Shown here: positions 3,447 through 38,262 of the stretch, piece by piece
Layout of the letters: every line of letters begins with the position of its first letter
Numbering within the stretch: position 1 is the stretch's first letter
Source: an uncultured Clostridia bacterium
Lineage (GTDB): Bacteria > Bacillota > Clostridia > TANB77 > CAG-508
Assembly (NCBI GenBank): GCA_963556905.1
Contig: CAUWAY010000001.1
Coordinates: 23,709 to 87,708 of the forward strand
Reading direction: 5' to 3'
Length of the DNA: 64,000 bases
Made by a program: the position numbers and the translations under genes
Notes under the pieces: generated by a model
What the model saw: the letters and a program-made list of their open reading frames with translations, nothing else
What the model was told of the DNA's origin: nothing
Databases searched by the model: none

Positions 3447-3598
3447 TTTTTCTCTTCCTATTATTTAAGTTTGAATATTCGGACAAGTTTTAATTTTTTC
3501 ACCTTCCTTAATTAGTTAATTCAAGGTTTTATACAGAGAATTTCTCTATTTTTTATTATACAACATTTTACATAATTTTGCAACATTTTTTATTTTTA

Positions 3599-6500: not shown

Positions 6501-9500
6501 AAATTTGCTTGTTCATAAATTTTGTTTTCGAATTTTTCATTCTTATTTAATGGATTTTCAAATAAGATATATGATGCTATTGTTTGATAAATGTCTATGT
6601 CTTTTCCTTTTACATCTAAATATCTTGATTCTGCATCTACTTTTGCTTTTACTATTTCAAACTCTCTTGATACATTTTCTGTTATTTTATATTTTTCTAT
6701 ATTTTGAATTGCAATTTGCTTATTATATTCTACTGATAAAATTAAATCTATATAAACTTTTTCATTTGGTTTTACTTTTATTGTATTTTTAAGTGCTACT
6801 ATTCCTTCTGTTGTAAGTCCTATCTTTTTCGATAATGGTGCTGATTTTTTAATAGCATTTGGAAGTCCTAAATTGTTTCTTCCTATAAATCTTTCTTTAT
6901 CTATTTCAAATTCTGTTTCTCCTATTTTTTCGCAATTTGTTTGCATTTTGGCAATTAAATATAATTCTTTTTTGTTTGCCTCTCTATTTTTACGTTTTAA
7001 AAGAATCGCATCTAGTTTTTCATCATATTCATATATTAAAAATAAATTATTAAAAGCTTGATGTGCATAATCTTGTTCTTTTTTTGATAGTACTGGTTCA
7101 AAAAAACCTGTGACTTCAAATATTTTTTCTTGGTTACTATTATTTTTTATTTCTAGTCTTCTTATTTCAACAGGTTCATTTGCATCTACTGTAATTTCTA
7201 ATTTGGTTTTTATATCTTCATTTTCTTTTTCAAATTGATTTTTATCTGGCATAAAGTCTATAGTAAATTTGTCACAATTTTTATTTCCTGTTGCAGACCA
7301 AATTTGATTTGTTTGTATATCTTTTATATAAATAAATATTCCTTGCTCATAATCATCTGTTTTTTTAAATCTATTTATATAATTTCCATCAAATTTACTA
7401 ACTCCTATTCCTTTTTGATTTATTGCTATATTGTATTTTTCATTTCCTATTAGATTTCCTCTTTCTACTCTTTCATCTATTTTTGTATATTCTCTTATAC
7501 TATAATTTTCATAATCTTTATATTTAATTTTTTCTGGCTTTTCTTTATTTTCTTTAGTTATTATAAATGTTTCTGGCATTCTTTCTTGTAGTAAAATATT
7601 TACAGCCTGAATTTCTGGATTTTTCATAAATCTTTCCTGAAAAATTTTCTCATTAAATAGATTATTTATTGAAAGTAATATTAATGCTTGATGATGTGCC
7701 ATATATGTTTTTACTGGTTCAGATTTTTTCCCTTTAGATAGTCTTTCAGGAGTATAATCTATCGATTCATAAAAACCATATTTATCATACATTCCTTCTT
7801 TTTCTAGTTTTTTTAAGTTTTCGACTACCTCTTTAGGCTTATCTGTTATAGCAAGTATACTTCCATAACTTGCTACTACCATTTCATCTTCAAGCCCTCT
7901 TTTTAGTCCTAGCCATGGTATTCCAAATGCTTTATATTGATAATTAGAATGTAAGTCTTTTAAATTAAATGCTGATTCTGATATTCCCCATGGTATTCCT
8001 AGTTTTTGACTATATTCTATTTGGTTCATTATTAAGAATTTACAAGATTCATCTAATAAACTCCCCTCATATCTTTTTACATTTATATTTGGCATTAAAT
8101 ATTCAAATGCTGTTCCTGACCATGAAATTAGTCCTTTATATTTTTTTAGTACTGTTAAAGTTCTACTTAAATTGTTCCAATGTTTTGGTGATATATCTTT
8201 TTTGGCTATTGCAACTAAACTTGCTTGCCTTGCTTCTGATGCTAATAAGTCATAATATGAATCTGTCAATTTATTTTCTTCTACATTATATCCTATTGAA
8301 AATAGGCTTTGTTCGTCATTATATAATACTTTAAAATTTGTTTCTTCTATCATTTTTGAAAGTTTTGTTATTAGTTCTTGAATTTCATTTACATCTATAT
8401 TTTCTTGTTTTAATTGTTTTTCTTCAATTTCTTCATATTTATCGTTGATTTCTTGCAAAAAAGCTTTTGTTGTAAACATATAACCTACTAAATTTCCACT
8501 ATCTACTGTTGATACATATCTTGGATTTAGAGGAGTTTTATTTTTTATATTATACCAATTATATAGGTGCCCATTCCACTTTGGCAATTCATAAATACTG
8601 TTAATAATATTTTTTAATAAATTTATCGTATCTTCTAGATTTTCAAATCCTAAATCATAACTCGAAATTACAGCAAGCAATGATAATCCTATATTTGTTG
8701 AAGAGGTTCTAGAAACAACTATTTCTTTTCTTTCTTCTTGATAATTATCTGGAATTAGATAATTATTTTTAGGTGTAATATAGTCCTTAAAAAATTTCCA
8801 TGTTTTTTGTGATATTTGTTTTATATATGTTTTTTCTTTTTCTTCTAATTTTTCAACAGTTTTGTTTTTTATTGGTATTTTGCTTATTTGATACATTATA
8901 TAAGGAGAAGTTCCCCATAAAATCCCAAGAATTAATAGTATCATATTATTATTTATTATTGAACTAATTATTGCTAAAATACCCATTATTATATTTATAA
9001 ACATCATATTGTAATATGTTGATAATTTAGTTTGTGCTTGTTTTTCCGCTTCTTCTGACGTCATCCATTCTAATAAATGTTTATGAGATATATTTACTCT
9101 GTATATTGTTTTTAAAATTGCTTTTAATTCTTCATAAGCTTTATGTGGCAAGCAACCTAATGTTAAGATTGCTCTATATATTGCTCCTTTATATCCATTT
9201 ATATGTGTTGCATAAGTTTTTTGTTTCTTTTCCCCTTCTTTTTTTGAGAAAACTCTAGTCATCATTTCCAGTAAAAACGGATAAATTGTAATTATTAAAG
9301 TTATTATTAATAGCAATTTAGAATTGCTTAATCCAATTATAGTCCAACATATTAATAAAATTATCGAAGTTTCAAATAGGCTTCTTCTTAAATTATCCAA
9401 TATCTTAAATTTTGACAATAAATTCAAATTACTATTATTTATCCACTTTGAAATTTGCCAATCTCCTCTTGTCCAACGAACAAGTCTATTAATAAAACTT

Positions 9501-11737
9501 GCATATTTTGCAGGATATCCATCTAATAGCATTATATCTGTTACTAAACCACATCTTAAATAACTTCCTTCTAACAAATCATGGCTTAATACAGTATTTT
9601 CAGGTATTTCATCTTTTAATATATTTGAAAATACTTCTACATCATATATTCCCTTTCCTGTAAAAATTCCTTCTTCAAAATTGTCTTGATATGCATCTGA
9701 TATTGCATTTGTATAATTATCAATTCCTCCTGCTCCCGCAAAAATTTTTGTAAATAAATTTTTATTGCTATCTTCTAAGTTAATTCCTACTCTTGGTTGC
9801 ATAAGTGCGTGTCCATTTTCAACAATTTTTTTGTTTTCGTTTATTTCTGGTTTATTTAAAATATGTGCCATTGCTCCAATTAGTTGAAATGCTGTGTTTA
9901 ATGGTAAATCTGTATCTGCATCTAATGTAATTACATATTTTATTTGTGGCAAACTATTTTGGTCTATTGTATTTATTTTAAATTTGTTTTTTTCATGTTT
10001 TAAAATATATTCATTAAATTGTGTTAACATGCCTCTTTTTCTTTCCCAACCCAAGTATTTTCCTTCTCCATTATTAAATTCTCTTTCTCTATATATAAAG
10101 TGAAAAATTGGGAATTTTTTATTAGAATATTTTTTATTCAGTTTTTTAACTTGTCTCAAGCCTTCTTCTATTATTTCTTTATCAAATTTTTCTTCTTTTG
10201 AATTACTTTCAGAGCAGTCTCCTAGTATTGAAAAATATAAGTTTTCGCTTTTATTTGCTAAATAATATACTTCTAATTTTTTGAATAGTTCTTGTACTTT
10301 TTCTTTTGATTTTATTATTGTTGGAATTACTACAAATGTTGTATTTTCTTGTGTTATACCTTTTTCAAAATCCATTTTAGGTATTATTTTTGGTTTTATA
10401 ACTTTTCCTAGTAAATATTGTATTGTCTTTATTACAAGTTCTGATACTGGAATTATCAGTAAAACTAATGTTATAATATATTTTATAAAGTTGTTTGATA
10501 CTGTTTGTGCTAAAAGTATTGATATTAACATTGTAAACGTTATTATTGATAAAATATATATTTTTACTTTTGAGTTATTGCTCAGTTTTTCTTGTGGTAA
10601 TTCTAATGTTTTATATAATTTTTTTCTTCCTTTATCTATTAAATAATATCCTATATGTTTTTCTTTTTCTCTATTGTTTTTTATTTTGCAAAGTTCAATT
10701 GTTTTTTTTGCAATATATATTTCTGACATATGTGTTTTTTGAGCAATTTCTTTTATTGCATTTCTATAATATTCTTTAGTACTATATTCCATTTTTTCAT
10801 ATATTCCTGCTGGATCTTGATTTAAAATTTCTTCTACTCCATTTATTTTTTCAAATATTTTTAAAAAGTTTATTCTTTGTATTTTTCTTATACTTGTTAT
10901 GCAATTTGCCATTGTTATTTTTTTTATTGCTGAATCAAAATGTTCTTTTTGAATTGCTTCTGATACCGTTATTCCTGTTTTCTCAACTTCTTCTTCTAAT
11001 ATGTTTAAATATCCATATGCTTTTTTTCCATATTTTTTCAATGAATATGACATATATTCTATAAATGAGTATCTCATATCTTTAAATTCATTATTTTTTA
11101 GCTTTATACCATATATGTTGTTATATTTTAATTCATCTTTTTCTTTTTTCTCTATTAATCTTTCAATTATATTTTTTACTTTATATTTTTGAAGTTGTGA
11201 ACTATATATTTTTTCACATATTTCTGCTATATTTTGAATTATAGATATTTGCAAAAAAACTCCTATATTCCATATTTCTTCCATATTTAATGTTTTTTTA
11301 GTTTGATATGCTTGTAAATATTTTTTTAAATTTTCTCCTGTTATTTTACTGTCTGTATATGCTACTATTTCTGTCGCTAATACATATATTCTAGCAAATC
11401 CTGAATACTTTCCATTTTGTATTCCTACAAAATTAGTATATTTTTTTAGTGTCATTTCTTTTTCTATTTGCCTTACTACTTCTTCTATTATATAAAAATT
11501 GTCTAATATCCATTCTCCTGCCGGATGGATATTTATTCCAAGTTTTATATGTTCATTTAATAAATTATATACTGTTTTTATTATATAATAATTTTCTAAC
11601 ATTTGTGGTATTGGATATGTTTGTTTGTTAGACTTTACTTTTAATATATGTTGCATTGCCATTTTTTCTAAATGTTGTTCTAGTTGTTCTTCATCTAATA
11701 TGGCTCCTTCTATATTTAGTTTTTGATATTTCCTCAA
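3599..11737 (-). CDS. cyclic beta-1,2-glucan synthase-like giant protein (membrane GT84-like glycosyltransferase plus C-terminal GH94-like glycoside phosphorylase)
   Basis: Uninterrupted 2712-aa ORF. It has TM segments and the motifs LGWERKRG, TLDADTDLP and SHDLLEGSYLRCGLVTD...RWTRGDWQ, as in NdvB/Cgs. The C-terminal region has FRDQLQD and other GH94-like blocks. Confidence 0.8.
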   Translation of the reverse strand: MRKYQKLNIEGAILDEEQLEQHLEKMAMQHILKVKSNKQTYPIPQMLENYYIIKTVYNLLNEHIKLGINIHPAGEWILDNFYIIEEVVRQIEKEMTLKKYTNFVGIQNGKYSGFARIYVLATEIVAYTDSKITGENLKKYLQAYQTKKTLNMEEIWNIGVFLQISIIQNIAEICEKIYSSQLQKYKVKNIIERLIEKKEKDELKYNNIYGIKLKNNEFKDMRYSFIEYMSYSLKKYGKKAYGYLNILEEEVEKTGITVSEAIQKEHFDSAIKKITMANCITSIRKIQRINFLKIFEKINGVEEILNQDPAGIYEKMEYSTKEYYRNAIKEIAQKTHMSEIYIAKKTIELCKIKNNREKEKHIGYYLIDKGRKKLYKTLELPQEKLSNNSKVKIYILSIITFTMLISILLAQTVSNNFIKYIITLVLLIIPVSELVIKTIQYLLGKVIKPKIIPKMDFEKGITQENTTFVVIPTIIKSKEKVQELFKKLEVYYLANKSENLYFSILGDCSESNSKEEKFDKEIIEEGLRQVKKLNKKYSNKKFPIFHFIYREREFNNGEGKYLGWERKRGMLTQFNEYILKHEKNKFKINTIDQNSLPQIKYVITLDADTDLPLNTAFQLIGAMAHILNKPEINENKKIVENGHALMQPRVGINLEDSNKNLFTKIFAGAGGIDNYTNAISDAYQDNFEEGIFTGKGIYDVEVFSNILKDEIPENTVLSHDLLEGSYLRCGLVTDIMLLDGYPAKYASFINRLVRWTRGDWQISKWINNSNLNLLSKFKILDNLRRSLFETSIILLICWTIIGLSNSKLLLIITLIITIYPFLLEMMTRVFSKKEGEKKQKTYATHINGYKGAIYRAILTLGCLPHKAYEELKAILKTIYRVNISHKHLLEWMTSEEAEKQAQTKLSTYYNMMFINIIMGILAIISSIINNNMILLILGILWGTSPYIMYQISKIPIKNKTVEKLEEKEKTYIKQISQKTWKFFKDYITPKNNYLIPDNYQEERKEIVVSRTSSTNIGLSLLAVISSYDLGFENLEDTINLLKNIINSIYELPKWNGHLYNWYNIKNKTPLNPRYVSTVDSGNLVGYMFTTKAFLQEINDKYEEIEEKQLKQENIDVNEIQELITKLSKMIEETNFKVLYNDEQSLFSIGYNVEENKLTDSYYDLLASEARQASLVAIAKKDISPKHWNNLSRTLTVLKKYKGLISWSGTAFEYLMPNINVKRYEGSLLDESCKFLIMNQIEYSQKLGIPWGISESAFNLKDLHSNYQYKAFGIPWLGLKRGLEDEMVVASYGSILAITDKPKEVVENLKKLEKEGMYDKYGFYESIDYTPERLSKGKKSEPVKTYMAHHQALILLSINNLFNEKIFQERFMKNPEIQAVNILLQERMPETFIITKENKEKPEKIKYKDYENYSIREYTKIDERVERGNLIGNEKYNIAINQKGIGVSKFDGNYINRFKKTDDYEQGIFIYIKDIQTNQIWSATGNKNCDKFTIDFMPDKNQFEKENEDIKTKLEITVDANEPVEIRRLEIKNNSNQEKIFEVTGFFEPVLSKKEQDYAHQAFNNLFLIYEYDEKLDAILLKRKNREANKKELYLIAKMQTNCEKIGETEFEIDKERFIGRNNLGLPNAIKKSAPLSKKIGLTTEGIVALKNTIKVKPNEKVYIDLILSVEYNKQIAIQNIEKYKITENVSREFEIVKAKVDAESRYLDVKGKDIDIYQTIASYILFENPLNKNEKFENKIYEQANLWKYGISGDLPIIVVTIKYVNDLYVVEQVVKMYEYLRTKNLKIELVIIDEEDYSYENYVKNEVEGVILNSQLSYMKNTFGGIFILSKSEIDIQDVNLIKFVSTIVIDSHLGNLENIIKDMEDEVLDNYRTIELSKETIEDDDMTQEIDLLSNTQNLKYYNEYGAFSEDGKEYWIKTNKENKVPATWSHIMANKNFGTVVTESNGGYSWYKNSRLNRVTSWHNSSSVNIPSETIYLKDEENGRIWSPTAMPMPDSKNYNTVYGFGYTKFIHASDDIIQELELFVPQEDSCKINILTLKNIAPKKKKIKIIYYTKPVLGEDEIKSSGYIKLQYEENSNILIAKNLYKTDEFRNVIYVSSSEQIKTYTGNKSKFMGKGGISNPDGLHCMRLDNDNGIGKKTCIAIELEIEIESFSDKKVSIILGAEDNIINAKDIAYKYSKIQNCYIELGKVKNKWNETLGKIQVNTPYESLNIMLNGWIMYQTIESRLCGKSGFYQSGGAYGFRDQLQDALSTKYINSDILKNQIIKHSKHQFLEGDVQHWWHEENGRGIRTKFSDDLLWLPYAVIQYINYTGDYSILNVKTPYLEGAILSENETEKYDKYILSDIEETIYNHCKKAINRACNFGENGLPKIGIGDWNDGFSNIGPQGKGESVWLGFFLYKILKEFAKIAQKQEMPMQDENKNDLNHVKYDIETSKKYLDIARNLQDNLNKNAWDGRWYKRAFGDFGETYGSMENEECRIDSISQSWSIISGAGEDEKTVIAMQSLENHLVDRENGIIKLLDPPFDKGKLEPGYIKAYLPGVRENGGQYTHAAIWAIIAEAILKDGDKAVEWYKMINPIEHARTKESSRKYKVEPYVMAADIYGAQNLAGAGGWTWYTGSSSWYYLAGIEYILGLRIYHNTMSINPCIPKNWEGYSMRFKFGESIYNIKVRNISKSLTEVKKILINGEEIENKIILDPCGKIFNIEVEI

Positions 11738-26607: not shown

Positions 26608-26960
26608 GGGGATGTAATGGTTTCGACATTATATTTGAAACACAAATAGCGAGTAGTGGATTCTCGTTGGCCACTTAAAAAACGAGAGTTTAAATATAAA
26701 CGCTGATAATAATAAAGAATTAGCTTTTGCTGCTTAGTTGCAGCAACGCCTGTTAAGATATCCCCACATATTTTAATTTGGTGTCATTTAGTGGGAAACA
26801 AAACTGCTTTTTCTACGTAAGCAGTGGGTATTTAGTAGATATATTTAATTGTCGTTTGTTTGTTAATGATTTTTAAATGAAGTTTTATAACATTCTGCAC
26901 TCGGAGAAGTTTGTGTGAATTTTATAGTGGACAGGGGTTCAATTCCCCTCATCTCCACCA
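26608..26960 (+). ncRNA. ssrA: tmRNA (SsrA)
   Basis: 5' GGGGATGTAATGGTTTCGACA. The 3' tRNA-like end is GGACAGGGGTTCAATTCCCCTCATCTCCACCA. The tag ORF is GCT GAT AAT AAT AAA GAA TTA GCT TTT GCT GCT TAG (26702..26737), giving (A)DNNKELAFAA. Confidence 0.92.
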
Positions 26961-27398: not shown

Positions 27399-28364
27399 AT
27401 GGAACATGAAATAAATAATTTGGTAGTTCAAGACAACATATCAAATGAAGAAATAAAAAATTTAATATATACAATAAGAGAAAAACAAGTAATGTTAGAT
27501 AGTGATGTTGCAATGTTGTATCATTATCCTACTAAAAGAATAAATGAAACTGTAAATAGAAATAAACAAAGATTTCCTGATAATTTTTGTTTTCAATTAA
27601 CAGAAGAAGAATATAAATTTTTAAGATGCAAAAATTTTACCTTAAACGAGGTTAATTCAGAAAATATAATTGAAGATAAATCTTTAAGGTCGCAATTTGC
27701 GACCTTAGAAGAAAATACTGGTAGAGGTAAACATCGTAAATACTTACCATATGTTTTTACAGAACAAGGAATAGCAATGTTATCAGGTTTACTAAAAAAT
27801 GATATAGCAATTCAAGTAAGTATAAATATTATGAATGCATTTGTAGAAATGAGAAAATTTTTAGCTGTAAATGGACAACTATTCGAGAGATTAACAAATG
27901 TAGAATATAAATTATTAGAACATGACAAAAAATTTGATAAAGTATTTGACCAATTACAAAATGAAGAAAATATAAAACAAAAAATATTCTTTGAAGGTCA
28001 AATATATGATGCATACAGTTTAATAATTGATATTATCAAAAAAGCAAATAAGAAGATTTTAATAATAGATAATTATATAGATGATAGTATTTTAAAAATG
28101 CTTACAAAAAAGAATAAGAATGTAGAAGTTGTAATATTAACATCTGATAAAAGTACTATACAGAAAATTGATATACAAAAGTTTAATAAAGAATATCCAA
28201 TATTAAAAGTTGCTAAAACAACTAAATTTCACGACAGATTTATAGTAATAGATAATAAAGAAATGTACCATTTAGGCGCTTCAATAAAAGATTTTGGAAA
28301 AAAATGTTTTGGAATTAATAAAATTGAAGGTTTAGATATTATAGAAAAGATTGTTAATTTATAA
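27399..28364 (+). CDS. ORF6N (KilA-N-related) DNA-binding domain protein with PLD-like C-terminal region
   Basis: IREKQVMLDSDVAMLYHYPTKRINETVNRNKQRFPDNFCFQLTEEE is the ORF6N signature. The C-terminus has FHDRFIVID...LGASIKDFGKK. Confidence 0.7.
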   Translation: MEHEINNLVVQDNISNEEIKNLIYTIREKQVMLDSDVAMLYHYPTKRINETVNRNKQRFPDNFCFQLTEEEYKFLRCKNFTLNEVNSENIIEDKSLRSQFATLEENTGRGKHRKYLPYVFTEQGIAMLSGLLKNDIAIQVSINIMNAFVEMRKFLAVNGQLFERLTNVEYKLLEHDKKFDKVFDQLQNEENIKQKIFFEGQIYDAYSLIIDIIKKANKKILIIDNYIDDSILKMLTKKNKNVEVVILTSDKSTIQKIDIQKFNKEYPILKVAKTTKFHDRFIVIDNKEMYHLGASIKDFGKKCFGINKIEGLDIIEKIVNL

Positions 28365-28813: not shown

Positions 28814-29276
28814 ATGGAAGAAGATAATTTTAAATACAATTCTACTATATTATCAAAAGAATTAAATTTTTTAAAAAAAGTTTACCCTTTTCTTCAAGTT
28901 TATTCTGCGGGAAAAAGTGTTTTAGGTAAAGATATTTGGTATATCAAAATTGGAAATGGTTCAAAAGAAATTTTTTATTCTGGTGCAATTCACCGGAAAT
29001 GAATGGATTACATCTAATGTTCTTATGGAATTTTTGAAAGATTTTTGTTATGCTTACCAAAATAATCTTTCTATTTTTGGCTTTTCTGCTCGTAATATTT
29101 ACAATTCTGCTACAATTTATATTATGCCTATGGTTAATCCTGATGGAGTTGATTTAGTTACTGGTGAAATCCTTCCTAATTCTACTCCTTATAATTCTGC
29201 AAAACAAATTTCTAATAATTTTCCGTCAATTCCTTTTGTTGATGGTTGGAAGTCCAATATTAGAGGTGTGGATTTT
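28814..29276 (+). pseudogene. M14 gamma-D-glutamyl-(L)-meso-diaminopimelate peptidase-like gene, 5' part (split by the 10.4-kb element; frame break at cac-CGG-A, C at 28994)
   Basis: ORFs 28814..29002 and 28950..29309 join as ..KEIFYSGAIH-G-NEWITSNVLMEFLKDF..IMPMVNPDGVDLV..GWKSNIRGVDF. The HxxE zinc motif spans the break. Confidence 0.75.
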
Positions 29277-29337
29277 AAAAACTTCCAACCAATTTGCAAA
29301 GTCTTGTAACTTACTAAAATCACACAACTTTGCATTT

Positions 29338-30974
29338 TTAATCTTCATTTATTAATTCTTCAATTTTTATAAATTCGTCCAAATTTTCATTAATATAATT
29401 TAGTTTTGAAAAGTTAAAATATATGTATACATTTTTATCTTTGTCAATCTCAATTTTGTTAATTAATCTGTATAAATACATTTTATCAATTTGATTTAAT
29501 TTCAAAAAATTTTCTATTAATTCATCTAATTCCTTTTCTTCTTTTATGTAATTTTTACTCTCAATTTCATTATCAAGTCCAATTAATTTTTGCTTTTGTT
29601 CATTTAATTTTGTTCTTTCAAACTTAAATTTTTGTGATATTCTAACATAATCTTCTTCTTGTAAGATTCCTATTAACTTATCCATATACATTTTATCTAA
29701 ATTAGTATTTATATCAAATATAACCTTATTAATTTGCTCAATTTTTTTCTTATATCCGTCTCGAATATCAAGTGTTTTATTTTGATATTTTTCATAAATA
29801 GAATAAAAAATTTTTTTATCAACGTATGTCCTACATATCTTTTTTACAATATAAATAATATGATTTTCAAATTTTCCGTAATTAATACTTAATGGATAGC
29901 AACCTCTTGATTTATGGTCGCTGCAAGTTATATATGGATGTGATTTTGCATTTCTTTTAGAGTTCTTTTTTAACACAATTTGCAGTTTTCTTTTACAATG
30001 ATAACAATAAAGTAATCCTCGTAATAAATAATCATATTTTAGTTTTGTATTTGTTCCTTTTTTTTCAATAATACATTGTACCTTTTCAAATGTGTCTTTA
30101 TCAATAATAGCTTCGTGTGTATTATCAACTCTTATTTGATTTTCCTTTTCAACTGTTCTTATTTTCTTAACTTTGTATGATATAACTGACTTTTTATTTT
30201 GTACTGTATTTCCGATATACACCTCATTTTTTAACATATTGCACAATGTCACTTCATTCCAATCATAGCTTGTTTTATTATCATCTTGAACTATTCCAGT
30301 TTTTCTATACCCTGTTGGAGATAAGTATTTATTGGTGTTTAAATAATTTACTATTTCCATACTTCCATGTCCATTTGCATACATATCAAAAATATTTTCT
30401 ACAGTATCTCTTACTTGTTCATCTATAATTAATTTATTTTTAATACTTGGATTCCTTTTATATCCGATAGGCTGGAATACTACATAAATATTCACCTTGT
30501 TTCTGTTTTTCCTTATAAACACTTCTAATTTTCTTGGATATATCTTTAGCATAATAATCGTTCATTATTGCTTTAAAAGGTGTTATATCATTATTTGTGC
30601 TATCAATATATGTATCTATTCCATCAGTTATTGCAACATACCTTATATTATTTTGTGGAAAATAATTTTCTATGTAATGGCCTATTTTAATATAATCTCT
30701 TCCAAGTCTTGATAAATCTTTGGTTATTACCATATTAATAGTTTTATTTTCGATGTCTGTGAGCATTCTATTGAACCCAAGTCTATCAAATGTAGTTCCA
30801 GAAATTCCGTCATCAACATATTCCTTTACCAAACATAAATTATTCTCCTTTACATATCTTTGCAAAATTTTTCTTTGATTACTGATACTTTCGCTTTCTT
30901 GCTTGTCGCCATCTTCTCTAGATAGTCTTATATACATTCCGTACTTTAAAGTTTTGACTATTTAAGTTTAGCAT
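29338..30974 (-). CDS. large serine recombinase (resolvase domain, recombinase domain, zinc ribbon, coiled coil), frame broken twice at CGG-A (C at 30941 and 30466)
   Basis: GGAGG RBS plus ATG at 30974 gives MLNLNSQNFKV. After skipping a C it reads GMYIRLSREDGD..SISNQ (catalytic Ser region)..SIPAY. After skipping another C it reads GYKRNPSIKNKLIIDE...YCYHCKRKL..CSDHKSRGC. Confidence 0.85.
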
Positions 30975-31192: not shown

Positions 31193-31802
31193 ATTTACAT
31201 CATCTCCTTACTGTTTTTAATAAAATTATCTAATACAGAATATTAAAGAAAATGGCTTGTTATGACACTTAAAATTAGTGTATTTGTCAATGTAGTTTTT
31301 AACTTCTTCTATATAGAAGTCCGCTTCATATAGCAAAAAAAAGTATTAAAATAATTTTTTTCATAAAAAAAGACACCCTATAATGTTCTCACACTATTAG
31401 GTGTTATTATATCTTTACAATACTAAAATTTTGCTACATTTTTACTTAACTTTTTGCTAACACATTTTCTTAATTAGCAAATCCGTGTAATGCCTATGTC
31501 ATCACACTTTCTTTTCATTTTTTCATATACATTTACATATTTTGTCAAGACCTATTTAAAAATTTTTATTTGGGAAATGTCGGACATTTAAAACAAATTT
31601 TATTTTTATGCTAAAAGGCAGAAAAGAGATTCAGAGTGAATCTCATAAACACCTAGAAAACCAAGTTTTCTAGTCCTGTACAAGTATTTAAAAAACACAG
31701 AAACAACACAGAGGAATATATCATTCCCACTTCAGTATTTGGTTCATTTTTTTGGTATATTACATTATGTATAAATTTATTTAATTTGCTTTTACTAATA
31801 GT

Positions 31803-32279
31803 TTAGCGCTTGTTTATTATATCTTCTTTAATTTTATTTATAGAATCTGTAACATATTTTGTAGCTTGTTCATCATAAATATATTTTCCACCAACTTTTC
31901 TAACGACATCTCCTAATTTTATATTTTCTGGCAAGTCTTTTTCAAAAGCAATATATTTACATTCTTTATTATTTTTGTATTGAGTTACTTTGTATCTATG
32001 ATATTCGTAATCATTTTCATACTTATCTGTAACAATAAATGTATCACCTTTACTTAAGTTTGATAATTCCTTGCTAAAATAACCTTCCAAAAAAGACCAT
32101 TTTTTTCTATAAAGTTCCATATCTTCTTCAGGAGTTAATTTAATATCATCCATTTTTTCACCTTTTAATTCATTTCTACTATTAATTTTTTCTAATGTCT
32201 CACTTAATTCTTGCATAAAATTTTTTATAAACTCATTTTGTTCCAATTTTTCTATTATTGTATCTAAGCCTAAATTCAA
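31803..32279 (-). CDS. hypothetical cytoplasmic protein, candidate inhibitor/immunity partner of the adjacent nuclease
   Basis: 158-aa ORF, 15 nt downstream of the nuclease gene, with no signal peptide. The role is inferred only from the NucA/Nin-like gene arrangement. Confidence 0.45.
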   Translation of the reverse strand: MNLGLDTIIEKLEQNEFIKNFMQELSETLEKINSRNELKGEKMDDIKLTPEEDMELYRKKWSFLEGYFSKELSNLSKGDTFIVTDKYENDYEYHRYKVTQYKNNKECKYIAFEKDLPENIKLGDVVRKVGGKYIYDEQATKYVTDSINKIKEDIINKR

Positions 32280-32294
32280 ATTATTCCTCCTTAT

Positions 32295-33074
32295 CTATTC
32301 TAATAATTTAGCTTCTCCTGTTCTATAATTAATTTCAAAATTGTCTTGTACATTATATATAAATTTATTAAAAGACACTCCATCTTCTTCAACAGATTTT
32401 GCTTCTATTTCTACACCAGTTGCCAACTCATTTGCACCATCATAAATTGGTGTTACTCTATATATAACATGATAATCTTTACCTTTCTTATTTTTTTGTT
32501 TAATCCAATTTGCAACTATATTTTCATATTCTATCATAGCATCATTTAGCTGTACTGTACCTGTAATTAGATTTTGTCTGTTATTATTTTCATTCCCTAA
32601 TTGCCATGCAATTAGATGACATCTCTCATATAAATGATAACGGTTATTTTCTCCATGTAAATATTGAAACCATCCAGTAGGCTTATATGATAAACTTCCT
32701 CTTTTAGTTCCTTCTAGTGGCATTGTATATTTACATATATTTGCAAAAGCTACATCTGCTCTTTCAAATTCATCAAGTGGTGAATAATATTCAAAATTTT
32801 CCGTAGTTATATCTGCATCTTTAAAATATGGTACATTATTATTAATGTCAATAACTATTTGTCCAGAATATTCTGGAATATCATTTATACTAATGTTAGT
32901 ATGAGTATTATTGACTATATTAGTTTGTGTATTTTCAGTTGAAATATTGTTTGATAATTCTTCTCTGTTTGGAAATATTGCATAGCCAATTAAAGTTAAT
33001 AATATTATTAAACTTACTATTATTCCTATTTGTTTTAAGTTTTTCTCTTTCATATCTTCTTTATTATTATTCAT
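32295..33074 (-). CDS. membrane-anchored DNA/RNA non-specific endonuclease (EndA / DNA-entry-nuclease-like)
   Basis: N-terminal TM (IGIIVSLIILLTLIGYAIF). The catalytic block is YERCHLIAWQLGNENNNRQNLITGTVQLN..MIEYEN, as in the Endonuclease_NS_2 family. Confidence 0.7.
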   Translation of the reverse strand: MNNNKEDMKEKNLKQIGIIVSLIILLTLIGYAIFPNREELSNNISTENTQTNIVNNTHTNISINDIPEYSGQIVIDINNNVPYFKDADITTENFEYYSPLDEFERADVAFANICKYTMPLEGTKRGSLSYKPTGWFQYLHGENNRYHLYERCHLIAWQLGNENNNRQNLITGTVQLNDAMIEYENIVANWIKQKNKKGKDYHVIYRVTPIYDGANELATGVEIEAKSVEEDGVSFNKFIYNVQDNFEINYRTGEAKLLE

Positions 33075-33378
33075 GTTTCCCCCCTAGCAACAATTCTTCA
33101 TAATTATTTTACATTATAATATTATAATACTGGAAATTTTTCAACTCTAATATCAATAGAAATAATAGAACCAAAAAAAATTTGAATGCAAACAATTAAG
33201 AAATAAATTTTTAAAATGAGATAACTGTTTATTTTATACCATATTTTGTAAATTTTTTCAATAATTACTGATTAATTTATACAATAAATTTATTTAAAAT
33301 TTAAAAAAGTAAGAAAATTAATAAACATATTAAATTCCTTACTTCTTCTTGTAATAATATTATTAACAAATTATTTAA

Positions 33379-33777: not shown

Positions 33778-35025
33778 CTATTTGTCAGCGCTCTTTTTGC
33801 TTTTTCTATTTATTTTTTTATAAGTATTATCTTTTGCATTATCTATTGTCTTTGTTAGAGCACTTATAATTATTCGATTTATTACTCTAAAATCTGATAT
33901 TTTATTGATTGTCTCATAGTCTAAATTGCTTTTTATTTCTGTAGCAGTAATTTTAGGTTGTAGATTTTCTTCTTTATATACACTTAACAATTTGTTTATT
34001 CTTTTTTCTATAAATACTTGTTTTTCCACGTTATTTGGACTTTCAAAAAAAGATTTTAATGTAAATCTTGATACTAATGGTGGTGGTAAAACTTCCTTGT
34101 AATTATCTTTAGATAAATTTGTTGTAAAAATAATTATATATCCATTTAAATCATATTCATTTCCTGTTAAATCTGTAAATTTTCCATCTTCTAATAATTC
34201 ATAGAAAAAATTAAATATATCAGTATCTGCTTTTTCAAATTCATCAATTAATATTACTTTTGAATCACTATTTCGTATTTTATTTGATAGTTCTCCACCT
34301 CTTTCACTACCAATAAATCCAATTGGAGAACCTATTAAACTATTTAGTGCTCCATGCGTTTTATAATTTCCTAAATTTATTTTTATCATCTTTGACTCTT
34401 TATACATAGTGTTGTGGATTATTCTAGCTAATTCAGTTTTTCCAACACCTGGATTTCCACATATAAGTAATGAAAATATTCTCATTTCCCCCAACTTATA
34501 TAATATTGGAAAATCTTTCAATTTCTTTAAAAACTCTTTTCTAAATGCATTATGTCCGATTAAATCATCTGTTAATGATTTCTCTATCTTTTTTAATCCA
34601 TCGTTATCTATGCTAATAAAGTCATAATTAACTAAATCTTTTTCTTCATAAATTGTTTGTATTGGTTTAAATTCATCAAAAGACGTTGCAAAATCCTGTC
34701 TAAATCTATTTTTGCTATTTTCATTTAATATAACATGTATATTTTCTGTTAAATAAATTTGATGCATAATATTTTCAATAATCATATTATTAGTTTCTGT
34801 ATTTGTTCTATATAAATTACTTATATCAACATAATAATTATTACTCTCTTCAATTTGTATAGGATTATTTTTATCTGCAAATGCTATTGCTGTTATAATC
34901 TCGTCATTGGTAGCCTTTTTAGTTTTAAATTCATTTAATCTTTCAAATGTAAATGTATAAACAATTTTATTCTTCATTATTCTCTTTATCTCCATTCTCA
35001 AATGATAAATCTTGTATAATTGCAA
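33778..35025 (-). CDS. ClpA/ClpB-D2-like (AAA_2) ATPase with unknown ~170-aa N-terminal domain
   Basis: LIGHNAFRKE...SLLICGNPGVGKTELARII (Walker A), LIGSPIGFIGSERGGELS, VILIDEFEKA (Walker B), FYELLEDGKFTD, IIFTTN (sensor 1). The true start is possibly Met at 34995 or 34977. Confidence 0.75.
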   Translation of the reverse strand: MQLYKIYHLRMEIKRIMKNKIVYTFTFERLNEFKTKKATNDEIITAIAFADKNNPIQIEESNNYYVDISNLYRTNTETNNMIIENIMHQIYLTENIHVILNENSKNRFRQDFATSFDEFKPIQTIYEEKDLVNYDFISIDNDGLKKIEKSLTDDLIGHNAFRKEFLKKLKDFPILYKLGEMRIFSLLICGNPGVGKTELARIIHNTMYKESKMIKINLGNYKTHGALNSLIGSPIGFIGSERGGELSNKIRNSDSKVILIDEFEKADTDIFNFFYELLEDGKFTDLTGNEYDLNGYIIIFTTNLSKDNYKEVLPPPLVSRFTLKSFFESPNNVEKQVFIEKRINKLLSVYKEENLQPKITATEIKSNLDYETINKISDFRVINRIIISALTKTIDNAKDNTYKKINRKSKKSADK

Positions 35026-35998
35026 TTAAATCAATGTACGGAGCTCTCACCAATTCAATTAATGGATCACCATTTACTTTTGTTTCTCTTGAAGATTTCA
35101 TTTCATCTATTTCTACATTTTGTTTATTGCCTAATTCTTGCAATTTTGAATATGTTGTTTTGTTTTTTGGATCATAATTTTTTGTTCTATATATTCCTAT
35201 AATATTTACTAAACCAATTTCTAAATCATATATTGAATATTCGTTTTCAAATTCTTTTTCTGCTTTCATTGGAATATCAATATAAAATTTTTCTTTTCCT
35301 TTTGTACACATTAAATAATATTTGTAATCTTTTAATATCATATTAGTTAATGAATTTACATTTATTTTAAAAGCTTGTCCATCTGAATATGTATCGACTG
35401 TATTACCGTTAAATGCACCACTTATAATAGAGTTTGCTTGTAATATTTCTTCATTATTCCAAATTTTCAATTTTACATTATCTATTTTTACTAAATCTCC
35501 ATTCTGCAAATCTTCTAGATTTTCTACTTTTTTACATTTTTTTAGAATTTCTCTTAAATATGTAGAATTTGTATTTTTTATTTCTTGAATTTCTTTATAT
35601 TCGTGATTTGTTAATTCAGAATACTCCCCACCTAAATCTCCTTTTATTGGTAATTTCTTTGTATTAAATGAACTCTCAATTCCGTAACTTTGCTTATAAC
35701 CTTTCTGCTTTTTTATTGATTCTTCAGCATTTATTTTTATTTTATTATTAATTAACATTGCAATTTCAAACACTTTCGGGTAATTAATATAATAAGTATT
35801 AAATAATTCTTTAAAATCATCTGTGGGGTTTATTTCTACTTCTTTTAAATCAAGATACAAAATTATTAGTGCAAATATAATGATACCTACCCATTTAATT
35901 GCAACTAAATCATTTAAAACTTTATCTAAAAACATATACATTACAATTACAAATAATATTTGAATTGTTATTTTTATTATCCATTTTAACTTTTCCAT
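34967..35998 (-). CDS. two-TM membrane protein of unknown function, translationally coupled to the AAA+ ATPase
   Basis: AGGAGA RBS precedes MEKLKWIIKITIQILFVIVMYMFL..IKWVGIIIFALIILYL, then a ~280-aa soluble part with no recognisable motif. Its 3' end overlaps the ATPase ORF. Confidence 0.6.
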   Translation of the reverse strand: MEKLKWIIKITIQILFVIVMYMFLDKVLNDLVAIKWVGIIIFALIILYLDLKEVEINPTDDFKELFNTYYINYPKVFEIAMLINNKIKINAEESIKKQKGYKQSYGIESSFNTKKLPIKGDLGGEYSELTNHEYKEIQEIKNTNSTYLREILKKCKKVENLEDLQNGDLVKIDNVKLKIWNNEEILQANSIISGAFNGNTVDTYSDGQAFKINVNSLTNMILKDYKYYLMCTKGKEKFYIDIPMKAEKEFENEYSIYDLEIGLVNIIGIYRTKNYDPKNKTTYSKLQELGNKQNVEIDEMKSSRETKVNGDPLIELVRAPYIDLIAIIQDLSFENGDKENNEE

Positions 35999-36072
35999 TT
36001 TATCTCTCCTAAAACAAAAGCGAAATATAATAATAGAATATTCTAATCTCATATTTCACTTATCTCTTGTAT

Positions 36073-36831
36073 TTATAAATTATTAAATCCAGCATATTCC
36101 TTAAATGCCAACAAGTATAATGCTTTTAATAAGTCAGGATTTTTCTCTCTTAGTTCATCTACTACTGTATCTGAACCAACTTGTAATTCTCTATTTTCTT
36201 CTATAATTTCATCTATTAACTTTGGTAATTCTATACAAATTTTATAAAATGCTTCTTTATCTCCAGTAACTATTTCATAGAACTTGTCCATTGAAACACG
36301 TCTAATTCTTTCGTTTTCCATTCTTTCTTCATCTAGAGAAACTTTCCAAACTATATTTTGACTATTCTTTGCTATAACTTCTACAAGATAACATTCTGCT
36401 TTATTGTCACTTGCAATTTTATTTAGCATTCTCATATATGTTTTTTGTGATGAAGAAGAATTCATTGTATTATGCTTATTTTTCATTTCTACATATATTT
36501 TAGTTCCATTATTCTTTGTATAAATGACATCGAATCCTTCTTTTGGTACTTCACAATTTTTTATGTATTTAAACATATTCTGATGAAAATATCCAATAGC
36601 ATTTGAATTCGTTTTATCTCTTTGTCTTACTAATTCATCTTTTATTACTTCTTCAAAATCTTTTCTATATACTTTACTATCAAATACCATTTTAATCGGA
36701 TCTACTATATTAAAATTAAATTTACTCAAGTCAATTCCGTCTAATCTTTTTTCATATGTAGAAATTGTATTTTTTATATGTTGTTTTAAATCTTCCCTTG
36801 TTATAAAATTAAGATTCCACATTTTCATCAA
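36073..36831 (-). CDS. type II restriction endonuclease candidate (Eco47II-like by recollection)
   Basis: 252 aa, overlapping the 3' end of the C5-methyltransferase gene by 23 nt. It has the blocks IGYFHQNMF and VEMKNKHNTMNSSS. Specificity is unknown. Confidence 0.55.
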   Translation of the reverse strand: MMKMWNLNFITREDLKQHIKNTISTYEKRLDGIDLSKFNFNIVDPIKMVFDSKVYRKDFEEVIKDELVRQRDKTNSNAIGYFHQNMFKYIKNCEVPKEGFDVIYTKNNGTKIYVEMKNKHNTMNSSSSQKTYMRMLNKIASDNKAECYLVEVIAKNSQNIVWKVSLDEERMENERIRRVSMDKFYEIVTGDKEAFYKICIELPKLIDEIIEENRELQVGSDTVVDELREKNPDLLKALYLLAFKEYAGFNNL

Positions 36832-37840
36832 CTCCTTTATTTAGTGCATTCATAATTGATATTCCAACTTCTTTTGCAAGCTCTACCGGTACAGCATTTC
36901 CTATTTGTTTATATATGTCATTCATTTTTCCTGAAAATTCCCATTCATCTGGAAAAGATTGAATTCTTGCATATTCTCTAGTAGTAAATGGTCTACTTTC
37001 CTCTGGATGACATCTATCAGTCTGTTTCATCATCGGAGAACATGTTAATGTTAATGATGGCTCATCCCAAGAAATTCTTCTTGCAATTCCAGTTCGTCCA
37101 CCACCCATAAAATAACATGATTTCATATAATCTCTTGCTACATCATCTGGTAAATCTCTCCAATATCCTCCAGGTGGTACTAAATCAAATACCTTTTTCT
37201 TTTTCTCAGGATATTTTGCGCCAACTGACTCCGGTACATTTTGTAACACATCTCTTAAAACAGGCTTATAATCGTGGGGTTCTGGATATTCAAATTTAAC
37301 ATTTTCTTTTAAATCATTTCTAGTTCCTATTATAACAACCCTTTGTCTCTTTTCAGCCACCCCATAATCCCATGCATTTAAAACTTTCCACTCAACTGTA
37401 TAACCTAAATCTTCAAAAACATCTACCATTGTTTGAATTGTTCTACCACCATCATGAGTAGTTAATCCTTTAACATTTTCTGCTAAAAACATTTTGGGTT
37501 GCAACTGTCTCAAAAATTCAGCATAATAGAAGAACATTGTTCCTCTTACATCTTCTAAACCTAGTTTTTTTCCTGCGTAACTAAATGATTGACAAGGATA
37601 CCCTCCAGATAATAAATCTAATTCTCCTTTTTTCAAGTTGAATTCCTTTAATAAATCTTTTTGAGAAAACTTCACAATATCTTCTTCAATTACATTCCAA
37701 TTAGGTCTATTTAATCTTAATGTATCACATGCAGTTTTATTTATTTCTACTAATCCTATTTCTTCAAATCCTGCTTTTTCTAAACCTAATGCTAAGCCCC
37801 CTGCTCCAGCAAATAGTTCTATACACTTTCTTTTCATCAA
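36809..37840 (-). CDS. DNA (cytosine-5)-methyltransferase
   Basis: Motif I is ELFAGAGG, motif IV is GGYPCQSFS, motif VI is ENVKGL, motif VIII is QRVVIIG, and motif X is GNAVPV. Confidence 0.9.
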   Translation of the reverse strand: MMKRKCIELFAGAGGLALGLEKAGFEEIGLVEINKTACDTLRLNRPNWNVIEEDIVKFSQKDLLKEFNLKKGELDLLSGGYPCQSFSYAGKKLGLEDVRGTMFFYYAEFLRQLQPKMFLAENVKGLTTHDGGRTIQTMVDVFEDLGYTVEWKVLNAWDYGVAEKRQRVVIIGTRNDLKENVKFEYPEPHDYKPVLRDVLQNVPESVGAKYPEKKKKVFDLVPPGGYWRDLPDDVARDYMKSCYFMGGGRTGIARRISWDEPSLTLTCSPMMKQTDRCHPEESRPFTTREYARIQSFPDEWEFSGKMNDIYKQIGNAVPVELAKEVGISIMNALNKGVDENVES

Positions 37841-37851
37841 CTATCTCTCCT

Positions 37852-38262
37852 TTAGTACAATTTTGTTGTTCCTACTTTATCTATATACTCTAACAATTCT
37901 TGATATTTTTCTCCATAAGCAAATGATTGCGGTGCAGTAAAATTAAATTTTTGTTTTAATGTATCTAATTTTATTGTTTTATTTATTTCATAAACACTTT
38001 CTATTTGATAAGCATACTTTTCTGTGTTGGTATTATTAAATTCCTTGTTGCCATATCCATCTATACTAATCTTGTTTGGACTAGCCACAGGTTGTTTTAC
38101 TCTTAAAACATATTTAAGTTCCTTTATAGGTGTTGGAACATATACTATTATATAATCAAAATCATTTTTAGGTTTTTTAGTCCTAAATTCATGATTTTTT
38201 ATTTTACTTAAAATTCTATTTATATGTATTTCTTTTATACTCATAAATACAGCACTTTTCAT
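37852..38262 (-). CDS. ASCH/PUA-like domain protein (uncertain)
   Basis: MSIKEIHINRILSKIKNHEFRTKKP....YIIVYVPTPIKELKYVLRV resembles the ASCH N-terminal pattern (SIKP.y...I..G.K..E.R). The likely start is at 38244. Confidence 0.45.
   Translation of the reverse strand: MKSAVFMSIKEIHINRILSKIKNHEFRTKKPKNDFDYIIVYVPTPIKELKYVLRVKQPVASPNKISIDGYGNKEFNNTNTEKYAYQIESVYEINKTIKLDTLKQKFNFTAPQSFAYGEKYQELLEYIDKVGTTKLY

What the first reader, a model, noticed from the sequence alone, without database searches (positions are those of the whole stretch)
33778..35998. Translationally coupled two-TM protein plus ClpB-D2-like AAA+ ATPase inside the island: candidate two-gene defence system
The upstream gene (34967..35998) encodes two N-terminal TM helices and a ~280-aa soluble region with no motif I can place.

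Its 3' end overlaps the downstream ORF, which has an unknown ~170-aa N-domain followed by an unmistakable Clp-type AAA_2 module:
- GNPGVGKTELA (Walker A)
- LIGSPIGFIGSERGG, which mirrors ClpB LIGAPPGYVG
- VILIDEFEKA (Walker B)
- ELLEDGKFTD
- IIFTTN (sensor 1)

It lacks the ClpB D1, middle and N domains, so it is not a housekeeping disaggregase.

The pair sits on a mobile element between a nuclease pair and an R-M system, which is the classic defence-island context. The architecture is reminiscent of the published Dodola system (DolA DUF6414 plus DolB ClpB-like ATPase, as I recall it). I cannot tell whether the membrane partner here is DolA-like. If it is not, this is an undescribed membrane-effector plus Clp-like-sensor pairing.
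Basis: partly seen in the sequence, partly recalled or inferred. Interest (0 to 1): 0.75.

Follow-up and report, generated by a model that had tools for sequence, protein, structure and literature searches.

The report
Dodola-like two-gene phage-defence candidate (PDC-M37)
This is a real, tightly coupled gene pair (a membrane-anchored partner plus a single-ring Clp-type ATPase), but it is already catalogued as the untested phage-defence candidate PDC-M37, and both of its proteins are distant relatives of the validated Dodola system.

Summary
Two minus-strand genes overlap by 11 nt. A (34967-35998, 343 aa) has an N-terminal two-helix membrane hairpin. B (33778-34977, 399 aa) has one ClpB/ClpC-D2-type AAA+ module with every quoted motif.

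The pair is not undescribed. PADLOC-DB models PDC-M37A and PDC-M37B match at 3e-57 and 1e-103. PDC-M37 is one of 145 untested "phage defence candidates".

B also matches DolB (1e-32). The soluble part of A is a remote homologue of DolA/DUF6414: profile-profile P = 8e-5, score 39 against 11-22 for shuffled controls. Pfam DUF6414 does not detect A itself.

In 30 of 30 related loci, B lies directly downstream of A, and the two proteins' identities fall together. The 2.2-kb cassette moves between serine-recombinase elements, often beside type II R-M genes.

- The membrane anchor is optional: 64% of family representatives have none. "Membrane effector" is therefore unsupported.
- PDC-M37B keeps the Hsp100 aromatic pore loop (17/17). 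Canonical DolB has lost it (0/113).

Most likely this is an anti-phage module driven by a protein-threading ATPase. Neither the function nor the mechanism has been tested.

The parts
34967..35998 (-). Gene A: PDC-M37A family protein, 343 aa. It is a remote DolA/DUF6414 relative with an N-terminal membrane hairpin.
   Evidence: ORF. SD AGGAG lies 7 nt upstream. PADLOC PDC-M37A matches at 3.3e-57. There are 161 close homologues and 343 cluster representatives.
35837..35995 (-). Predicted two-helix transmembrane hairpin of A (residues 2-54).
   Evidence: Hydropathy analysis. AF2 helices 2-27 and 32-54 have pLDDT 80-88. No invariant columns in this region. The segment is optional across the family.
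35003..35809 (-). DolA-like soluble domain of A (residues 64-332). Conserved motifs: LFNxYYINxxKVFEIxMLINN, EYKExQEIKNTNS, LKDYKY, IPxKAEKEFENxYSIYDLEIGxVNIIGIYRT, PYIDLIAIIQDL.
   Evidence: Alignments. hhalign against the DolA alignment. AF2 core has pLDDT 80-94. Only weak OB-fold-like fold matches were found.
34967..34977 (-). 11-nt overlap, ATGAAGAATAA. The start codon of B lies inside the end of A, consistent with translational coupling.
   Evidence: Homologous loci show 8-nt overlaps or 1-nt gaps. The Dodola locus L014 also overlaps by 11 nt.
33778..34977 (-). Gene B: PDC-M37B family, 399 aa, a single-module ClpB-D2-type AAA+ ATPase.
   Evidence: PADLOC PDC-M37B matches at 1.4e-103 and DolB at 1.4e-32. 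AAA_2 matches at 3e-26. ClpC/ClpB D2 matches at 6e-27.
34480..34977 (-). N-terminal domain of B (residues 1-166). Its fold is unknown. It is conserved within PDC-M37B.
   Evidence: No Pfam hit. Alignment.
34093..34479 (-). AAA_2 large subdomain of B: Walker A 34426-34458, pore loop GFIG within 34294-34338, Walker B 34228-34257, sensor-1 34117-34134.
   Evidence: Pore-loop census.
33781..34092 (-). C-terminal lid region of B, with a conserved Arg (LVSRFT, 34060-34077) and a candidate sensor-2 Arg (DFRVINR, 33874-33894).
   Evidence: Alignment with homologues and DolB shows both arginines are invariant. The functional labels are inferred by analogy with ClpB D2.
36073..37840 (-). Adjacent type II R-M system: Eco47II-family REase (36073-36831) plus a C5 methyltransferase (36809-37840). 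This is context, not part of the pair.
   Evidence: Pfam RE_Eco47II 3e-86 and PADLOC REase_II. The methyltransferase ORF is and was not itself scanned; its assignment rests on its translation and on the syntenic homologues in related loci that match PF00145 and PADLOC MTase_II.

Best explanation
The pair is a member of the PDC-M37 family, a divergent sister of the Dodola (DolA+DolB) anti-phage system, carried as a self-contained 2.2-kb cassette on a serine-recombinase element.

Proposed working model:
- Protein A is a DolA-like adaptor or sensor held at the cytoplasmic face of the membrane by a two-helix hairpin.
- A is made in fixed ratio with, and binds, protein B.
- B assembles into a single-ring Hsp100-type hexamer. 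It has an intact Walker A, Walker B, sensor-1, arginine finger and aromatic pore loop (GFIG).
- On phage infection the complex uses ATP to thread and unfold a protein substrate. The substrate is either a phage protein or A itself (as an activation step). This blocks phage multiplication.

Shown here: the gene pair, its motifs, family membership, strict pairing, co-divergence, cassette mobility, and homology of both partners to Dodola.

Inferred: the anti-phage function (by homology to tested Dodola, catalogue membership and context), hexamer formation, A-B binding, substrate threading, and the tether role of the TM hairpin.
For: Family membership:
- PADLOC PDC-M37A matches at 3.3e-57, PDC-M37B at 1.4e-103 and DolB at 1.4e-32.

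Homology of A to DolA:
- hhalign gives P 1.4e-4 to 8e-5 and score 39.3, collinear over up to 224 columns. Thirty column-shuffled controls score 11-22 and the reversed control 23.6.
- PADLOC DolA hits 11 of 78 relatives. Pfam DUF6414 hits 1 of 42.

Pairing:
- B lies directly downstream in 30 of 30 loci and on 4 plasmids.
- A/B identities co-vary from 95/89 down to 31/35.
- The genes overlap by 8-11 nt or abut.

Mobility and context:
- Only the A-B cassette is shared with several loci.
- Neighbours are rich in type II R-M genes and serine recombinases. One locus lies beside a FokI-type R-M, and a true Dodola locus lies beside Thoeris.
- The pair also occurs alone between housekeeping genes.

Motor competence:
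- Catalytic motifs are invariant.
- The pore loop G[YF][IVYF]G is present in 17 of 17 PDC-M37B. Two of three plasmid homologues also keep G[YF][IV]G, and the third has GYVN.

Literature:
- Dodola protects B. subtilis against phage SPP1 (cited in PMC11514479) and protects S. thermophilus and L. cremoris (10.1101/2024.10.22.618286).
- PDCs were derived from genes embedded in BREX, DISARM and type I R-M systems (10.1101/2024.01.29.577857).
- PADLOC calls some loci both Dodola and PDC-M37 (PMC11811056).
Against: - No member of PDC-M37 has a published phage phenotype. The PDC set is explicitly 'untested'.
- The Dodola mechanism is itself unknown, so homology gives the function class but not the mechanism.
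- A is not detected by Pfam DUF6414 or the PADLOC DolA model. hhalign probability is only 53-61%.
- The fold of A has no significant structural match. No catalytic or binding activity can be assigned.
- Many neighbours are mobility genes, so a role for the element itself is not excluded.
- A-B interaction, hexamer formation and threading were not tested. No multimer prediction was available.
- TM prediction rests on hydropathy and AF2 helices only.
Confidence: 0.6

Rival explanations
1. Abortive-infection or toxin-like reading. The TM hairpin of A is the effector that damages the membrane, and B senses infection and releases or activates it.
For: - A has two predicted TM helices.
- The genes are overlapping and co-inherited, as in toxin-antitoxin-like pairs.
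- A subset of relatives carries about 4 TM helices.
Against: - 72 of 112 family representatives have no TM segment, and 119 of 120 DolA proteins have none.
- No invariant residue occurs in residues 1-64, even among close homologues.
- All strongly conserved positions lie in the soluble domain.
Confidence: 0.12
2. The pair serves the mobile element, for example in maintenance, exclusion of competing elements or transfer, rather than host defence against phages.
For: - Neighbours are dominated by large serine recombinases, TnpV and Mob_Pre/relaxases.
- The pair is found on mobilizable plasmids.
Against: - The cassette occurs without any mobility gene between housekeeping genes (L011-L013).
- It moves between unrelated element backbones.
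- Its homologue Dodola has direct anti-phage activity (PMC11514479; 10.1101/2024.10.22.618286).
Confidence: 0.15
3. Housekeeping proteostasis: a membrane-associated Clp-type chaperone with an adaptor.
For: B is closest in sequence to ClpB/ClpC D2 and keeps the pore loop.
Against: - It has a single AAA+ module with no D1, M or N domain.
- Its distribution is patchy and it sits on mobile elements and plasmids.
- It lies inside a roughly 11-kb insertion absent as such elsewhere.
Confidence: 0.03

Closest known systems
PDC-M37 (PADLOC-DB v2 'phage defence candidate'; Payne et al., bioRxiv 10.1101/2024.01.29.577857)
   Same: - Both proteins match the family's own HMMs nearly end to end: A 64-334 on 3-275/277, and B 17-397 of the 415-aa reading on 1-386/390.
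- The genes are adjacent on the same strand.
- One of the four A models (PDLC04601, 374 positions) aligns from residue 23, so it extends into the N-terminal region.
   Different: Nothing structural differs. This is a new instance in an uncultured Clostridia-like genome. The family has no published experimental test and no assigned mechanism.
Dodola (DolA DUF6414 + DolB ClpB-like ATPase)
   Same: - The architecture is two genes, with the partner upstream and the ATPase downstream, and the same 11-nt overlap in L014.
- B matches DolB at 1.4e-32.
- A's soluble domain aligns collinearly with DolA. Shared motifs are KTxS..L, (D/G)Y.Y.L, F.N.Y...DL......G and a C-terminal (Y/I)D(V/L)I.A strand.
- Both occur on plasmids and islands of Bacillota.
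   Different: - A is not detected by the Pfam DUF6414 or PADLOC DolA models.
- A carries a 60-residue TM hairpin, and its soluble domain is about 280 aa against about 250.
- DolA proteins have no TM segment in 119 of 120 cases.
- PDC-M37B keeps the Hsp100 aromatic pore loop in 17 of 17. DolB lacks it in 0 of 113, and its Walker A to Walker B spacing is about 7 residues shorter.
- The N-domains of B and DolB align poorly.
Hsp100/Clp unfoldases (ClpB, ClpC, ClpA D2 module)
   Same: - The AAA_2 module carries Walker A, Walker B, sensor-1 and an Arg finger.
- The LIGSPxG(F/Y)(I/V)G pore-loop block parallels ClpB LIGAPPGYVG.
- Matches run from 6e-27 down to 1e-16.
   Different: - It has one ring only, with no D1, M-domain or Clp N-domain.
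- It has a novel 166-aa N-domain.
- It is encoded with an obligate partner on mobile DNA.

Membership tests
PADLOC PDC-M37 | Partner protein matches a PDC-M37A HMM | tested here: met
   E-values are 3.3e-57 (PDLC04602), 1.1e-52, 1.3e-19 and 2.4e-19 for the four models. All 78 diverse relatives also match.
PADLOC PDC-M37 | ATPase matches a PDC-M37B HMM | tested here: met
   E-values are 1.4e-103 (PDLC04606) and 1.7e-101 (PDLC04605).
PADLOC PDC-M37 | The two genes are adjacent on one strand | tested here: met
   They overlap by 11 nt in the window. B lies downstream in 30 of 30 related loci.
PADLOC PDC-M37 | Anti-phage activity | not testable with these tools
   The catalogue describes the PDCs as untested (10.1101/2024.01.29.577857). 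The full-text search found no paper testing PDC-M37.
Dodola | DolB: ClpB-like AAA+ ATPase matching the DolB model | tested here: met
   PADLOC DolB matches at 1.4e-32, covering residues 43-394. The PDC-M37B models score far higher.
Dodola | DolA: partner matches Pfam DUF6414 (PF19952) or the PADLOC DolA model | tested here: not met
   This protein gives no hit at E<=0.01 in Pfam or PADLOC, nor at E<=10 in Pfam.
Dodola | Partner is homologous to DolA at superfamily level | tested here: met
   hhalign of the family profile against a 45-sequence DolA alignment gives P 8e-5 and score 39.3. Controls score 11-22 (shuffled) and 23.6 (reversed). Intermediate sequences hit DolA in 11 of 78 cases and DUF6414 in 1 of 42. 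Probability is only 53-61%, so this is a remote relationship.
Dodola | Gene order partner then ATPase, tightly coupled | tested here: met
   In L014, DUF6414 is at 2923-3702 and the AAA gene at 3692-4777. In L015, they are at 390-1115 and 1117-2241. The window pair is arranged the same way.
Hsp100/Clp disaggregase (ClpB) | Two AAA+ modules (D1 and D2) with an M-domain and an N-domain | tested here: not met
   Only ClpB positions 595-722 (D2) are matched. The score of 103 bits is far below the 1232-bit cut-off. There is a single AAA_2 domain.
Hsp100/Clp disaggregase (ClpB) | D2-type aromatic pore loop and catalytic motifs | tested here: met
   GFIG sits in LIGSPIGFIGSERGG. Walker A, Walker B, sensor-1 and the arginines are invariant in the alignment.

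The most novel reading that the evidence does not exclude
PDC-M37 is not just 'another Dodola' but a mechanistically distinct branch. It would be a single-ring Hsp100-type unfoldase that has kept its substrate-threading pore loop, which canonical DolB has lost. In some lineages it is tethered to the membrane by its DolA-like partner. It would confer immunity by ATP-driven unfolding or extraction of phage proteins, for example injected or membrane-associated ones, or by unfolding its own partner to trigger a response. Defence by protein unfolding at the membrane would be a mode of immunity not yet described.
Probability: 0.18. Interest if true: 0.7.

Novelty: new member of a known kind. Interest (0 to 1): 0.35.

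Why it matters
As a genome-scan finding this is a correct call of a defence candidate. It adds an instance rather than a new kind, because standard tools (PADLOC) already flag it as PDC-M37.

What may be useful to specialists is the comparison made here:
- Both PDC-M37 proteins are homologous to Dodola's, which links an untested candidate to a validated system whose mechanism is unknown.
- The ATPase branch found here retains the Hsp100 pore loop that DolB has lost.
- The partner's membrane anchor comes in 0-, 2- and roughly 4-helix versions.

These contrasts give concrete mutants and comparisons for working out how Dodola-type systems act.

Tried and rejected
- Pfam, NCBIfam and PHROGs scans of A gave nothing significant. 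Only sub-threshold POT1/OB-like hits appeared.
- A PDB sequence search with the A-family profile gave no hit at E<=1.
- Two AF2 models of A reached pLDDT 64 and 71. Three Foldseek searches found no match at E<=1e-3. The recurring weak hits are to OB-fold proteins (MCM N-domain, Asp/Asn/Lys-tRNA synthetase N-domains, RPA, Tetrahymena p19, HIN-200). I treat these as a hint only and do not claim nucleic-acid binding.
- Single-sequence hhalign of the family profile against individual DolA proteins was not significant (E 0.24 and 0.005). Only profile against profile was.
- The promoter/terminator scan was uninformative in this AT-rich DNA: 30 sites against 42 expected, and no terminators.
- The viral-contig scan found only 2 loci, so there is no evidence that the system is typically phage-borne.
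- The metagenome scan with the diverse alignment failed for lack of a conserved stretch and was repeated with the closer alignment.
- I considered B as a ClpP-coupled protease partner and rejected it. B has no ClpP-docking loop that I could recognise, and no protease gene is adjacent. This is a reading of the sequence, not a formal test.
Full report
**1. What is in the sequence**

Two long minus-strand ORFs occupy 33778-36052.

Gene A:
- It most likely starts at ATG 35998. AGGAG lies 7 nt upstream, and homologues are 337-347 aa.
- It ends at 34967, giving 343 aa.
- Its first ~55 residues form two hydrophobic helices. Evidence is hydropathy and AF2 helices 2-27 and 32-54 with pLDDT 80-88.
- The rest is soluble and has no significant Pfam, NCBIfam or PHROG match.

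Gene B:
- The mechanical ORF starts at TTG 35025. The family HMM begins at residue 17, and homologues begin MKNK/MKSK.
- The likely start is therefore ATG 34977 (399 aa). It overlaps the stop of A by 11 nt, ATGAAGAATAA.
- It has a 166-aa N-domain without database matches.
- This is followed by one AAA_2 module (3e-26). The nearest relatives of that module are the D2 rings of ClpB, ClpC and ClpA (1e-29 in NCBIfam; 6e-27 among PDB sequences).

**2. What family it belongs to**

- PADLOC-DB has dedicated models for both proteins: PDC-M37A (3.3e-57) and PDC-M37B (1.4e-103). B also matches DolB at 1.4e-32, and A does not match DolA.
- 'PDC' are phage defence candidates. There are 145 single- and multi-gene cassettes found embedded in BREX, DISARM or type I R-M loci. 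They were added to PADLOC explicitly as untested candidates (10.1101/2024.01.29.577857).
- That 'M' stands for multi-gene is my inference.
- A survey of the B. cereus group reports PADLOC calling the same locus both Dodola and PDC-M37. It also reports DefenseFinder giving other names to PDC-M37 proteins (PMC11811056).
- The pairing is therefore catalogued, not undescribed.

**3. Is the partner DolA-like?**

I fetched true Dodola loci from plasmids:
- L014 is from B. thuringiensis. The DUF6414 protein is at 2923-3702 and the AAA ATPase at 3692-4777, next to Thoeris.
- L015 is from E. faecium.

I then built a 45-sequence DolA alignment from proteins that all carry PF19952.

Profile-profile comparison with a 78-sequence alignment of diverse A relatives gave:
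- P = 1.4e-4 over 177 columns.
- With the TM part trimmed: score 39.3, P = 8e-5, extending collinearly to 224 columns.
- Thirty column-shuffled controls scored 11-22, and the reversed alignment scored 23.6.

The aligned blocks are the conserved ones in both families:
- the N-terminal strand;
- KTxS..L;
- (D/G)Y.Y.L;
- F.N.Y...DL......G;
- the C-terminal (Y/I)D(V/L)I.A strand.

Independently, 11 of 78 A relatives hit the PADLOC DolA model (best 5.4e-7), and 1 of 42 close relatives hits Pfam DUF6414 (1.3e-5).

I conclude that A is a remote DUF6414-superfamily member that current Pfam and NCBI models do not recognise. RefSeq calls its plasmid homologues 'hypothetical protein'.

**4. Is the pair a unit?**

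- Across genome, metagenome, viral and assembly collections, every locus with an A homologue and enough downstream DNA has a B homologue immediately downstream on the same strand. This is 30 of 30, with some redundancy.
- Four plasmids from Listeria, Halobacillus and Priestia show the same arrangement.
- A/B identities to the window pair fall together: 95/89, 83/85, 70/80, 64/63, 48/52, 43/53, 31/35.
- The genes overlap by 8-11 nt or abut.
- At nucleotide level, several loci share only the A-B cassette with the window (33.83-36.03 or 36.11 kb). The closest elements share the whole ~28.9-40.2 kb segment except the nuclease region.
- Among 149 neighbouring ORFs in 15 loci there are 9 large serine recombinases, 5 TnpV, 5 relaxases, 6 C5 methylases, Eco47II, HpaII and other type II R-M components. 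One locus sits beside a FokI-type R-M.
- Another set sits alone between housekeeping genes.

This is the pattern of a mobile accessory module that often travels with R-M systems.

**5. Anatomy that bears on mechanism**

*(a) The membrane anchor is optional.*
- Of 112 cluster representatives in which the N-terminal motif can be located, 72 start directly with the DolA-like domain, 13 have a short extension with 1-2 hydrophobic segments (as here), and 27 have a longer extension with about four.
- DolA proteins have none in 119 of 120 cases.
- Within the TM-bearing subfamily there is no invariant residue before F66.
- This fits a tether rather than a conserved effector.

*(b) B looks like a working threading motor.*
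- Walker A, Walker B, sensor-1 and two arginines are invariant in B homologues and DolB.
- B keeps the Hsp100 D2 pore-loop block LIGSPxG(F/Y)(I/V/Y/F)G, present in 17 of 17 PDC-M37B. Two of three plasmid homologues also keep it, and the third has GYVN.
- None of 113 full-length DolB homologues has an aromatic pore-loop motif between Walker A and Walker B. Their spacing there is about 7 residues shorter.

*(c) The fold of A is unresolved.*
- The better AF2 model has pLDDT 71, with a confident alpha/beta core at residues 140-290 and a low-confidence 90-139 segment.
- It has no significant match in the PDB or BFVD.
- The weak top hits are consistently OB-fold proteins, as is the sub-threshold Pfam POT1 hit.
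- I treat this as a hint only.

**6. Most likely function and mechanism**

- By homology of both components to Dodola, by catalogue membership and by context, the pair is most likely an anti-phage module (about 0.6-0.7).
- Dodola protects B. subtilis against SPP1 (cited in PMC11514479) and gives broad protection in S. thermophilus and L. cremoris (10.1101/2024.10.22.618286).
- My working model is a membrane-tethered DolA-like adaptor or sensor bound to a single-ring Hsp100-type hexamer that unfolds a protein substrate on infection.
- The model is inferred from the motifs and the strict coupling. No step of it has been tested, and the Dodola mechanism is unpublished in the library searched.
- Three rivals are listed with their refutation tests: a TM-effector abortive-infection model, a function for the mobile element itself, and housekeeping proteostasis.

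**7. Novelty and score**

- This is a new instance of a catalogued candidate family that is itself a Dodola relative: a new member of a known kind.
- A specialist running PADLOC would get the call at once.
- The residual interest lies in the untested status of PDC-M37 and in the two contrasts found here (pore loop retained against lost; 0, 2 or ~4 TM versions of the partner). Both could help in dissecting Dodola-type systems.
- Interest: 0.35.

Noticed in passing
window 26608-26960 (+): A tmRNA (ssrA) gene with tag peptide ADNNKELAFAA lies about 2 kb from the left end of the ~28.9-40.2 kb element. A related element (L004) also has a tmRNA-like stretch nearby (window 26606-26850 matches L004 16671-16918). 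This suggests a shared insertion neighbourhood.
   Followed up: partly
window 29338-30937 (-): The large serine recombinase is split into two overlapping ORFs in different frames: Resolvase domain at 30458-30937, and Recombinase plus Zn-ribbon at 29338-30552. The orthologue in L019 is an intact 543-aa protein. This is either a frameshift pseudogene (an immobilised element) or a sequencing error.
   Followed up: partly
window 28826-29309 (+): A Peptidase_M14 (zinc carboxypeptidase) fragment lies next to the recombinase and is apparently interrupted (two tblastn pieces). Peptidase_M14 ORFs also flank five related copies of the element. It may be the insertion target or part of the element.
   Followed up: partly
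window 31293-33303 (-): This region holds an Endonuclease_NS_2 protein with an N-terminal hydrophobic anchor (32295-33074) and a 158-aa protein with a sub-threshold DUF3006 hit (31803-32279). It is missing from the otherwise syntenic elements L001, L019 and L020. It is variable cargo and possibly a secreted nuclease with an inhibitor.
   Followed up: partly
DolB homologues P0388-P0507; loci L014-L016: Canonical DolB ATPases lack the aromatic pore-loop motif between Walker A and Walker B (0 of 113) and have a shorter spacing there. I found no mention of this in the papers read.
   Followed up: yes
A-family representatives P0121-P0267: The DolA-like partner comes with no TM segment, with 1-2 hydrophobic segments, or with about four. 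One representative (P0140, 745 aa) carries a ~450-residue N-terminal extension with no Pfam match.
   Followed up: partly
window 37852-38262 and 38371-39081 (-): Two ORFs of unknown function (136 and 236 aa, no significant Pfam hit) lie just upstream of the R-M genes. The first is conserved together with the R-M and A-B block in L001 and L019.
   Followed up: no
window 3599-11737 (-): A very long ORF of 2712 aa, far outside the finding. It was not examined.
   Followed up: no
window 27399-28364 (+): An ORF6N-domain protein (2.8e-32) lies between the tmRNA gene and the element. Such domains are common in phage and mobile-element regulators.
   Followed up: no
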